A stretch of 64,000 bases of DNA from the human T2T-CHM13v2.0 reference genome, Homo sapiens (GCF_009914755.1 NC_060938.1), one strand, 5' to 3'; shown: positions 58,663 to 60,525, counted from the stretch's first letter. The notes: generated by a model not told the origin, from the letters alone. Numbers and translations: made by a program.

Positions 58663-60525
58663 ATGCTTTTCTCCTTCCATAACAGTGCATCTCTCTGTAA
58701 AAATCTCAAAGGTTCTTTTTTCACTGACCCGGTGAGGTGGGTGGGGCGAGCCCCGAGGGGCTCTCATACCAAAATGACAGGATCAAATTCACACATAACA
58801 ATATTAACTTTAAATGTAAATGGACTAAATGCTCCAATTAAAAGACACAGACTGGCAAATTGGATAAAGAGTCAAGACCCATCACTGTGCTGTATTCAGG
58901 AAACCCATCTCACGGGCAGAGACACACATAGGCTCAAAATAAAAGGATGGAGGAAGATCTACCAAGCAAATGGAAAACAAAAAAAGGCAGGGGTTGCAAT
59001 CCTAGTCTCTGATAAAACAGACTTTAAACCAACAAACATCAAAAGAGACAAAGAAGGCCATTACATACTGGCAAAGGGATCAGTTCAACAAGAAGAGCTA
59101 ACTATCCTAAATATATATGCATCCAATACAGGAGCACCCAGATTCATAAAGCAAGTCCTGAGTGACCTACAAAGAGACTTAGACTCCCACACAATAATAA
59201 TGGGAGACGTTAACACCTCACTGTCAACATTAGACAGAACAACGAGACAGAAAGTTAACAAGGATACCCAGGAATTGAACTCAGCTCTGTACCAAGCAGA
59301 CCTAATAGACATCTACAGAACTCTCCACCCCAAATCAATAGAATATACATTTTTTTCAGCACCGCACCACACCTATTCCAAAATTGACCACATAGTTGGA
59401 AGTAAAGCTCTCCTCAGCAAATGTAAAAGAACAGAAATTATAACAAACTGTCTCTCAGACCACAGTGCAATCAAACTAGAACTCAGGATTAAGAAACTCA
59501 CTCAAAACCGCTCAACTACATGGAAATTGAACAACGTGCTCCTGAATGACTACTGGGTACATAACGAAATGAAAGCAGAAATAAAGATGTTCTTTGAAAC
59601 CAACGAGAACAAAGACACAACATACCAGAATCTCTGGGACACATTCAAACCAGTGTGTAGAGGGAAATTTACAGCACTAAATGCCCACAAGAGAAAGCAG
59701 GAAAGATCCAAAACTGACACCCTAACATCACAATTAAAAGAACTAGAAAAGCAGGAGCAAACATATTCAAAAGCTAGCAGAAGGCAAGAAATAACTAAAA
59801 TCAGAGCAGAACTGAAGGAAATAGAGACACAAAAAACCCTGCAAGAAATTAATGAATCCAGGAGCTGGTTTTTTGAAAGGATCAACAAAATTGATAGACC
59901 ACTAGCAAGACTAATAAAGAAGAAAAGAGAGAAGAATCAAATAGACGCAAAAAAAAATGATAAAGTGGATATCACCACCGATCCCACAGAAACACAAACT
60001 ACCATCAGAGAATACTACAAACACGTCTATGCAAATAAACTAGAAAATCTAGAAGAAATGCATAAATTCCTCGACACATACACCCTCCCAAGACTAAACC
60101 AGGAAGAAGCTGAATCTCTGAATAGACCAATAACAGGAGCTGAAATTGTGGCAATAATCAATAGCTTACCAACCAAAAAGAGTCCAGGACCAGATGGATT
60201 CACAGCCGAATTCTACCAGAGGTACAAGGAGGAACTGGTACCATTCCTTCTGAAACTATTCCAATCAATAGAAAAAGAGGGAATCCTACCTAACTCATTT
60301 TATGAGGCCAGCATCATCCTGATACCAAAGCCGGGCAGAGACACAACCAAAAAAGAGAATTTTAGACCAATATCCTTGATGAACATTGATGCAAAAATCC
60401 TCAATAAAATACTGGCAAACCGAATCCAGCAGCACATCAAAAAGCTTATCCACCATGATCAAGTGGGCTTCATCCCTGGGATGCAAGGCTGGTTCAATAT
60501 ACGCAAATCAATAAATGGAATCTAG
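58663..60525 (+). CDS. Open 620-aa chimeric frame: 37 aa (flank + 28S + ORF1 tail) fused to ORF2 1-583; expression unknown
   Basis: ORF track; ATG 58663 is in frame with ORF2 ATG 58774 (111 nt apart). Confidence 0.25.
58716..58765 (+). rRNA. 50-nt 28S (LSU) rRNA fragment, retrotransposed and non-functional, fused to the L1 5' end
   Basis: TTTTTTCACTGACCCGGTGAGGTGGGTGGGGCGAGCCCCGAGGGGCTCTC versus recalled human 28S TTTTTTCACTGACCCGGTGAGGCGGGGGGGCGAGCCCCGAGGGGCTCTC; GC/CpG island-like in AT-rich context; two hairpins. Confidence 0.88.

What the first reader, a model, noticed from the sequence alone, without database searches (positions are those of the whole stretch)
58716..58790. 28S rRNA-L1 chimeric retro-insertion: a structured ribosomal RNA fragment caps an L1 at the ORF2 start
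Seen: a 50-nt GC/CpG-rich block sits between AT-rich flank and L1. It folds into two hairpins (TCACTG-ACC-CGGTGA and GAGCCCC-GA-GGGGCTC). Recalled knowledge: it matches the 3' half of human 28S rRNA apart from one CpG transition and one extra T in the G-run, and it is in the same sense as the L1. It joins the L1 through a 2-nt TC microhomology. Cellular-RNA/L1 chimeras are established for U6 and other small RNAs, via template switching or RNA ligation. An internal 28S piece placed at the ORF1-stop/ORF2-start is unusual. Inference: ORF2p jumped onto rRNA of a ribosome associated with the L1 RNP at the termination/reinitiation site, or a cleaved 28S fragment was ligated to cleaved L1 RNA. If recurrent, this would define an rRNA-headed L1 class.
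Basis: partly seen in the sequence, partly recalled or inferred. Interest (0 to 1): 0.9.

Follow-up and report, generated by a model that had tools for sequence, protein, structure and literature searches.

The report
Known 28S rRNA–L1 chimeric insertion
A 50-base piece of 28S ribosomal RNA sits directly in front of a truncated L1 retrotransposon, almost certainly copied in with it in one event; this exact locus and its class are already published, so it is real but not new.

Summary
Window 58716-58765 (+) matches 28S rRNA nt 4081-4129 of a 5083-nt rDNA copy. It differs by one CpG C>T and one extra T. It lies in the same sense as a 5'-truncated L1PA3 whose certain homology starts at 58770, 4 nt before the ORF2 ATG at 58774.

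It is not new. Law & Burns (Cell Genomics 2026, PMC13174262) describe 18 human 28S rRNA/LINE-1 chimeras. Their Table S3 lists this locus as hg38 chr14:43253793-43253842, LSU-rRNA_Hsa:4044-4091, plus L1PA3.

I found five other listed loci in this assembly. In four the 28S piece abuts the L1 with no gap, and four have exact duplications of 9-17 bp around 28S+L1.

This locus is the weakest of the set:
- no target-site duplication;
- 4 unassigned bases at the junction;
- the published automatic timing flag is 0.

L1 breakpoints in the 18 loci range from 128 to over 6000 nt. The cluster near ORF2 (3 of 18) is weak and post hoc. Only one of the two proposed hairpins is native.

The best reading is a template switch of ORF2p from L1 RNA onto 28S rRNA.

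The parts
58698..58703 (.). TAAAAA, the 6-bp 'upstream TSD' given for this locus in the published table (cleavage TG/TAAA). It is weak and lies 12 nt from the insert.
   Evidence: Table S3 row; TSD size 6, '>=7: No'. One search shows TAAAAA here once the hg38-to-window offset is applied.
58704..58715 (.). 12 nt (TCTCAAAGGTTC) between the published TSD and the 28S piece. No assignable origin; most simply target flank.
   Evidence: only chance 8-9-mers to 45S rDNA or to the L1, on either strand.
58716..58765 (+). 28S rRNA piece, nt 4081-4129 of a 5083-nt 28S (Dfam LSU-rRNA_Hsa 4044-4091). It has 1 CpG transition and 1 inserted T. The first six bases are a T run that could partly be target or microhomology.
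   Evidence: Structure context.
58766..58769 (+). ATAC: four junction bases that match neither 28S nor L1. They may be untemplated additions or a small indel in the L1 spacer.
   Evidence: The 19 other L1 copies examined read CTAACATCATAA (12), CTAACATCAAAA (3) or one of four single variants before TGACAGG. The window reads CTCATACCAAAA.
58770..62819 (+). 5'-truncated L1 (L1PA3 by the published RepeatMasker call), from 4 nt before the ORF2 ATG to its 3' end, with an 8-A tail (62812-62819).
   Evidence: 95.2-96.7% identical to three other L1PA3 parts. for the family name.
58774..62601 (+). ORF2, full length (1275 codons) with no frameshift, broken by two in-frame stops at codons 584 and 846.
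   Evidence: Pfam Exo_endo_phos and RVT_1.
62811..62816 (.). TAAAAA, the published 'downstream TSD'. It lies inside the L1's own A-rich tail.
62820..62860 (.). 3' flank (GAATCCTAAT...). It has no repeat of the 5' flank, so no target-site duplication.
   Evidence: Between 58560-58775 and 62790-63000 the longest shared word is 9 nt at an unrelated offset, and no 14-mer matches with 2 or fewer mismatches.

Best explanation
This is one retrotransposition event of L1PA3 age.

Inferred steps:
1. L1 ORF2p was reverse-transcribing an L1 RNA at the target.
2. It copied from the poly(A) tail up to a point 4-10 nt before the ORF2 AUG.
3. It then left the L1 RNA, possibly after adding up to 4 untemplated bases.
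4. It continued on a 28S rRNA molecule, entering just 3' of a small native hairpin (nt 4129) and copying 49 nt to the U run at nt 4081.
5. The end of the cDNA was joined to the upstream target DNA, perhaps through the T run, without making a target-site duplication. That implies a blunt or deleting second-strand break.

Shown: the piece is 28S, in sense, abutting the L1 with at most 4 unassigned bases; there is no TSD; and loci of the same build elsewhere are single events.

Inferred: template switch rather than prior ligation, the order of steps, and the way the 5' end was joined.
For: - Identity and place of the 28S piece.
- It has no poly(A) of its own and no flanking repeat of its own, so it has no independent route of retro-insertion.
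- The junction is tight. The 28S match ends at 58765 and L1 homology starts at 58770.
- No second copy of this junction exists in the assembly. Only the locus itself matched all 91 bases, so it is not a copy of a chimeric source locus.
- Precedent, tested here. Five other loci of the published table were found in this assembly.
  - chr2, chr7 and chr8 have exact 15/17/15-bp duplications flanking 28S+L1, with a 0-nt gap and no shared bases at the 28S-L1 joint.
  - chrX has an exact AAGAATTTT duplication and a 0-nt gap.
  - chr1 has 7 extra bases at the joint.
- All six pieces, including this one, are in sense. Their L1-side ends fall in 28S nt 4048-4159.
- Published: the locus is listed as a 28S/LINE-1 chimera 'found by close proximity ... 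supported by a clear MSA'. 83% of the 18 loci are in sense.
- Divergence fits a common age. The 28S piece has 1 substitution and 1 indel in 49 nt. The L1 is 95-97% identical to other L1PA3 parts.
Against: - No target-site duplication encloses 28S+L1 here. The published one is 6 bp, sits 12 nt from the insert and lies inside the A tail.
- The paper's automatic same-age flag is 0 for this locus.
- I could not see an empty site. No other primate genome is at hand, and the flanks have no paralogue that spans the junction.
- Four junction bases are unexplained.
- Nothing here separates a template switch from ligation of RNA fragments before reverse transcription. Both give sense joints without shared bases.
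- At 50 nt, this is the shortest 28S piece of the 18. It does not start at the recurrent 5' end (nt 3672-3677) seen in chr1, chrX and chr8.
Confidence: 0.6

Rival explanations
1. RNA ligation came first. A cleaved 28S fragment was ligated to a cleaved L1 RNA, as RtcB does for U6/L1. The hybrid RNA was then copied in one pass of target-primed reverse transcription.
For: - Sense orientation and joints without shared bases in four other loci fit ligation as well as switching.
- Law & Burns name ligation as an option.
- Ligation is shown for U6/L1 in Moldovan et al. 2019, PMC6789731 (title and start of abstract only).
- The recurrent 28S 5' ends at nt 3672-3677 in chr1, chrX and chr8 could mark a discrete fragment.
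Against: - Here the piece is internal at both ends (nt 4081-4129) and shares neither end with the other loci I examined. Two extra cleavages would be needed.
- Four (this locus) and seven (chr1) extra bases at the joint are more typical of a polymerase adding bases at a jump than of a ligase.
- The L1-side ends of the 28S pieces are scattered over about 110 nt.
Confidence: 0.15
2. Filler capture at repair. The L1 cDNA was truncated near the ORF2 start, and a stray cDNA or fragment of abundant 28S rRNA was caught between the cDNA end and the target by end joining. The insertion could be endonuclease-independent or could carry a target deletion.
For: - No TSD.
- The piece is very short (50 nt).
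- There are unassigned bases at the joint.
- 12 nt of unassigned sequence lie upstream.
Against: - The L1 has an intact 3' end and an A tail, as in ordinary target-primed insertion.
- Sense orientation is what a continuing polymerase gives, whereas random capture would be antisense half the time.
- Four sister loci have exact TSDs.
Confidence: 0.12
3. One reading: the jump happened because a ribosome sat at the ORF1-stop/ORF2-start of the L1 RNA, so its 28S rRNA was the nearest template.
For: - 3 of 18 published loci have L1 5' ends within 160 nt upstream of the ORF2 ATG: this one at -4 to -10, chr1 at -78 (12 nt before the ORF1 stop) and chrX at -142.
- P = 0.012 under a uniform null.
Against: - The window was chosen post hoc. 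Without the prompting locus it is 2 of 17, P = 0.07.
- None of the 17 lies between the ORF1 stop and the ORF2 ATG.
- 15 of 18 break elsewhere.
- The piece comes from the large-subunit region at the base of the L1 stalk (helix names recalled, structure), not from the mRNA path.
- Reverse transcription at the target is nuclear, which is established knowledge of TPRT and was not tested here.
Confidence: 0.05
4. Two independent events: a 28S fragment was already at the site, or arrived later, and the L1 landed beside it by chance.
For: - No shared TSD.
- Automatic same-age flag 0.
Against: - A 50-nt internal rRNA piece has no tail or TSD of its own.
- It abuts the L1 within 4 nt, in the same sense.
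- Manual alignment check reported in the paper (legend).
- Loci of the same build are proven single events.
Confidence: 0.03

Closest known systems
[quoted passage not shown]
   Same: This is one of their 18 loci (Table S3). It is in sense orientation, and the 28S piece lies inside their most-used region, 3,636-4,115. The L1 is 5'-truncated and of a young primate family.
   Different: - It is the shortest piece in the set (50 nt; their range is 50-482, median 269).
- It does not start at the recurrent position 3,636.
- It has no TSD of 7 bp or more.
- It was found by proximity only, not by the automatic timing test.
U6/L1 and other small-RNA/L1 chimeric retrogenes (U1-U6, U3, 5S). The early papers are recalled. 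Moldovan 2019 was seen as a listing only.
   Same: A cellular non-coding RNA copy is fused in front of a 5'-truncated L1 and made in one L1-driven event. Template switching or RNA ligation is the proposed cause.
   Different: U6 is usually full length with a defined 3' end that suits RtcB ligation. Here an internal 49-nt stretch of a 5-kb RNA is used, with both ends internal.
L1 insertions without TSD (target deletions, endonuclease-independent insertions; recalled literature, not read here)
   Same: No duplication flanks the insert, and there are extra bases at the 5' joint.
   Different: Endonuclease-independent insertions are often 3'-truncated and lack a tail. This L1 has its normal 3' end and an 8-A tail.
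28S rRNA retropseudogenes and 'orphon' 28S DNA (Munro 1986, Wang 1997; cited in the paper, not read)
   Same: 28S-derived DNA outside the rDNA arrays.
   Different: Those are longer stand-alone copies. An example seen here is contig 19 at 24.148 Mb, with 28S nt 2827-3012 and 3608-4574 and no L1 in 6.5 kb. The present piece is 50 nt and welded to an L1.

Membership tests
28S rRNA/LINE-1 chimeric insertion (Law & Burns 2026) | LSU-rRNA fragment within 50 bp upstream of the 5' end of an L1 | tested here: met
   The 28S match ends at 58765 and L1 homology starts at 58770.
28S rRNA/LINE-1 chimeric insertion (Law & Burns 2026) | Fragment and L1 arrived at the same time (same presence/absence across species) | not testable with these tools
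   No other primate genome is at hand, and the flank-paralogue approach failed. The paper gives proximity flag 1 ('supported by a clear MSA', legend) and automatic flag 0. Its figure PDFs could not be read.
28S rRNA/LINE-1 chimeric insertion (Law & Burns 2026) | One target-site duplication (7 bp or more) enclosing fragment plus L1 | tested here: not met
   One search found none. The paper gives 6 bp and '>=7: No'. The feature is met in four sister loci: chr2 15 bp, chr7 17 bp, chr8 15 bp and chrX 9 bp.
28S rRNA/LINE-1 chimeric insertion (Law & Burns 2026) | L1-endonuclease-type cleavage site at the target | tested here: inconclusive
   Without a TSD or an empty site the nick cannot be placed. 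TG/TAAA depends on the weak 6-bp call.
28S rRNA/LINE-1 chimeric insertion (Law & Burns 2026) | Listed in the published catalogue | tested here: met
   The Table S3 row is chr14:43253793-43253842 LSU-rRNA_Hsa:4044-4091 plus L1PA3 chr14:43253851-43257895. With a constant offset, the lengths, order, strand and both TAAAAA words fall at the right window places.
U6/L1-type chimeric retrogene | Complete small RNA with its natural 3' end joined to the L1 | tested here: not met
   The piece is nt 4081-4129 of a 5083-nt RNA, internal at both ends.
Stand-alone 28S retropseudogene | Own poly(A) tail and own TSD | tested here: not met
   The piece is followed directly by L1 sequence. It has no A run and no flanking repeat.
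Endonuclease-independent L1 insertion | No TSD, together with 3' truncation or a missing tail | tested here: inconclusive
   There is no TSD, but the 3' end and the 8-A tail are intact.

The most novel reading that the evidence does not exclude
28S/L1 joints are not random on either partner.
- On 28S, the polymerase enters within a stretch of about 110 nt (nt 4048-4159, the base of the L1 stalk and the neighbouring expansion segment). It often runs off at one fixed 5' end (nt 3672-3677).
- On L1, the jumps may be enriched in the last 160 nt before ORF2 (3 of 18 loci).
- Together this would mean that L1 RNA near the ORF1-ORF2 boundary is physically close to that face of the large ribosomal subunit, or to a defined 28S fragment, when ORF2p copies it.
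Probability: 0.07. Interest if true: 0.6.

Novelty: already known. Interest (0 to 1): 0.15.

Why it matters
It matters little as a discovery. The class was published with 18 loci, and this locus is one of them.

It has modest value as a case study. It is the smallest 28S piece of the set and the only TSD-analysed one without a convincing target-site duplication. Its empty site in an outgroup would show how such a chimera is joined to the target when the usual staggered break is missing.

The side observation on breakpoints may be worth testing on larger sets of insertions. Entry points on 28S are clustered, a fixed 5' end recurs, and there is a weak excess of L1 breaks just before ORF2.

Tried and rejected
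- Rfam on the window (58000-64000, E up to 10) did not call the 50-nt piece. It is too short for the LSU model, so identity was shown through the genome's own rDNA instead.
- TSD search: nothing.
- Origin of 58690-58715 in 45S rDNA or in L1: chance words only.
- Empty-site reconstruction from paralogues. The left flank holds an old repeat (70-80% identical to 4 loci), but it ends near 58648. The right flank is unique. No use.
- Listing non-rDNA copies of 28S with a plain 23-mer. It gave 224 matches, and all of the first 100 listed were in the rDNA arrays, so the few others could not be seen. This was solved by two routes:
  - TSD words from the paper;
  - a pattern with 'not-rDNA' letters at the 28S 5' boundary. 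The first form found chr8 and a contig-19 pseudogene. The second found chr8, chr1 and chrX.
- Background rate of L1 5' ends just before ORF2, from probe counts. A 23-mer at -174 gave 10,596 matches and one at the ATG gave 12,919. The difference mixes truncation with unequal conservation, so I did not use it.
- Twelve of the 18 published loci were not examined by me.

Full report
**What is there**

The sequence at 58700-58790 reads AT-rich flank, then TTTTTTCACTGACCCGGTGAGGTGGGTGGGGCGAGCCCCGAGGGGCTCTC (58716-58765), then ATAC, then CAAAATGACAGGATC..., which is L1. The block is 66% G+C with 3 CpG. The flanks are 34% and 38% G+C.

A search of the window's own assembly with 58700-58790 scored 40 of 225 candidates.
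- One was the locus itself, matching all 91 bases.
- The other 39 were hits at 96% identity to query 17-66, spaced 46,970 bp apart on contig 13.

One such unit, L002, is LSU_rRNA_eukarya by Rfam at 1355 bits. A longer fetch shows 18S, 5.8S and a complete 28S of 5083 nt at L065:4097-9179. The piece is 28S nt 4081-4129.

Rfam run directly on the window did not call it, because the piece is too short for that model.

**The L1**

Thirty-nine other L1 copies matched 58766-59065 at 98-99% identity (40 scored of 862 candidates).
- 37 of them align only from 58770.
- One aligns from 58768 and one from 58774.

In the 19 copies I read, the bases before TGACAGG are CTAACATCATAA (12), CTAACATCAAAA (3) or one of four single variants. 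The window has CTCATACCAAAA.

L1 homology is therefore certain only from 58770, and ATAC (58766-58769) belongs to neither partner. It is one of three parsings and cannot be confirmed.

The ORF1 stop in those copies lies 63 nt before the ORF2 ATG. The break is therefore at the 3' end of the inter-ORF spacer, not at the ORF1 stop.

ORF2 runs from 58774 to 62601. It has 1275 codons and no frameshift, with in-frame stops at codons 584 and 846. Pfam finds the endonuclease and RT domains. The element ends in ...TAATAATAATAAAAAAAA at 62819.

**Structure**

The Rfam consensus structure over the rDNA copy divides the piece into three parts.
- The first 9 nt (UUUUUUCAC) are the 3' strand of a long helix.
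- CCCGG and CGGG are 5' strands whose partners lie about 85 nt downstream, outside the piece.
- Only GAGCC/GGCUC is a local native hairpin.

By recall, and not by any search, these are H76, H79 and expansion segment ES31L, at the base of the L1 stalk.

The fold energies are -23.3 kcal/mol (z -1.5) for the locus and -21.3 kcal/mol (z -0.6) for rDNA, no better than shuffles.

**Flanks**

No target-site duplication exists. Between 58560-58775 and 62790-63000 the longest shared word is 9 nt at an unrelated offset. No 14-mer matches with 2 or fewer mismatches.

The 12 nt before the piece have no source in 45S rDNA or in L1.

An attempt to rebuild the empty site from paralogues failed. An old repeat in the left flank ends near 58648, and the right flank is unique.

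**Already published**

What I read of it:
- the outline and abstract;
- passages on 28S;
- part 1 of the Methods;
- the supplement list;
- parts 1 and 2 of the 3 parts of Table S3.

What the paper reports on 28S rRNA/LINE-1 chimeras:
- 18 loci;
- pieces of 50-482 nt, median 269;
- 83% in sense;
- most often from 28S 3,636-4,115;
- RNA ligation or template switching as the likely cause.

Table S3 lists chr14:43253793-43253842 (+), LSU-rRNA_Hsa:4044-4091, next to L1PA3 chr14:43253851-43257895. The flags for this row are:
- proximity flag 1;
- automatic timing flag 0;
- TSD TAAAAA, 6 bp, '>=7: No';
- cleavage site TG/TAAA.

With a constant offset of 5,809,077, the lengths, the order, the strand and both TAAAAA words fall on window 58698-58703 and 62811-62816. 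It is the same locus. The legend says the proximity flag means 'supported by a clear MSA'. I could not see that alignment, and the figure PDFs are not readable here.

**Sister loci, checked here**

I located five other listed loci in this assembly. Three came from the TSD words of the table and two from a boundary pattern that shuts out rDNA copies. I then fetched them. Positions are in the 5083-nt 28S numbering.

| Locus | 28S nt | Identity to rDNA | L1 start | Joint | TSD |
|---|---|---|---|---|---|
| chr2 | 3902-4159 | 86% | window-L1 position 2225 | no gap, no shared base | exact 15 bp |
| chr7 | 3666-4079 | 94% | window-L1 position 2658 | no gap | exact 17 bp, overlapping the 28S start by a few similar bases |
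| chr8 | 3677-4048 | 95% | window-L1 position 2378 | no gap | exact 15 bp, with 4 extra bases before the 28S start |
| chrX | 3672-4159 | 96% | -142 from the ORF2 ATG | no gap | exact AAGAATTTT |
| chr1 | 3673-4153 | 87% | -78, 12 nt before the ORF1 stop | 7 extra bases that read as a short tandem repeat of the first L1 bases | only a degenerate repeat, about 9 of 11, read by eye |

The class is therefore real, and in four of these five loci a single event is proven by the duplication. The present locus is built the same way but lacks that proof.

A sixth hit is on contig 19 near 24.148 Mb. It is a longer 28S pseudogene with no L1 within 6.5 kb.

L1 spans in the 18 rows are 128, 339, 386, 411, 1107, 1397, 1427, 1621, 1677, 1826, 2774, 3059, 3132, 4045, 4127, 4204, 6159 and 9492 bp.

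Three of them (this locus, chr1 and chrX) break within 160 nt before ORF2. The statistics under a uniform 6-kb null are weak:
- P(3 or more of 18) = 0.012, but the window was chosen after seeing the data;
- without the prompting locus it is 2 of 17, P = 0.07;
- none of the 17 lies between the ORF1 stop and the ATG.

Probe counts meant to give a background rate (10,596 against 12,919) are confounded by unequal conservation and were not used.

My three literature searches turned up no paper tying L1 inter-ORF breakpoints to rRNA joints. That is a narrow search.

**Verdict**

The class and this very locus are already in print.

- The most likely mechanism is a template switch of ORF2p from L1 RNA to 28S rRNA during target-primed reverse transcription, followed by an atypical joining without a duplication (confidence 0.6).
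- Prior RNA ligation (0.15) and filler capture at repair (0.12) remain open.
- The ribosome-at-reinitiation idea is unsupported (0.05).
- Independent insertion is very unlikely (0.03).

Noticed in passing
L070 (contig 1, 237014300-237019500), L071 (contig 23, 107501450-106800 region), L069 (contig 8): Three 28S/L1 chimeras start at almost the same 28S base: nt 3673, 3672 and 3677 (chr7 starts at 3666). This suggests a fixed run-off point, either a fragment end or a block to reverse transcription. The paper notes the same start, as position 3,636 in its numbering.
   Followed up: partly
L070, around locus positions 634-646: The chr1 28S-L1 joint carries 7 extra bases. Together with the first L1 bases they read as ACATGC twice, a small slip or snap-back at the jump. 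The L1 there starts 12 nt before the ORF1 stop.
   Followed up: partly
L071, around locus positions 661-673: At the chrX joint, the last roughly 10 bases of the 28S piece resemble the L1 bases that would have preceded the break (6-7 of 10). This is a possible homology-assisted switch.
   Followed up: no
L072 (contig 19, 24142000-24148500, minus strand): A stand-alone 28S pseudogene in three blocks (28S nt 2827-3012, 3608-4403 and 4405-4574), 76-87% identical to rDNA, with no L1 within 6.5 kb. It is not in the LSU sheet of Table S3.
   Followed up: partly
window 58425-58648: An old interspersed repeat in the left flank, unmasked in NCBI's file, 66-80% identical to four loci on contigs 1, 2 and 11. 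It ends about 70 nt before the insertion.
   Followed up: partly
window 58618-60525: The ORF2 reading frame stays open upstream of the ATG, through the 28S piece and 98 nt of flank. This is probably chance.
   Followed up: no
window 62943-63112: The RefSeq-annotated enhancer lies about 125 nt downstream of the L1 tail. No link to the insertion was examined.
   Followed up: no
contigs 13, 14, 15 (rDNA arrays): The rDNA unit spacing differs by array in this assembly: 46,970 bp on contig 13, 44,272 bp on contig 14 and 42,527 bp on contig 15, from the listed hits.
   Followed up: no
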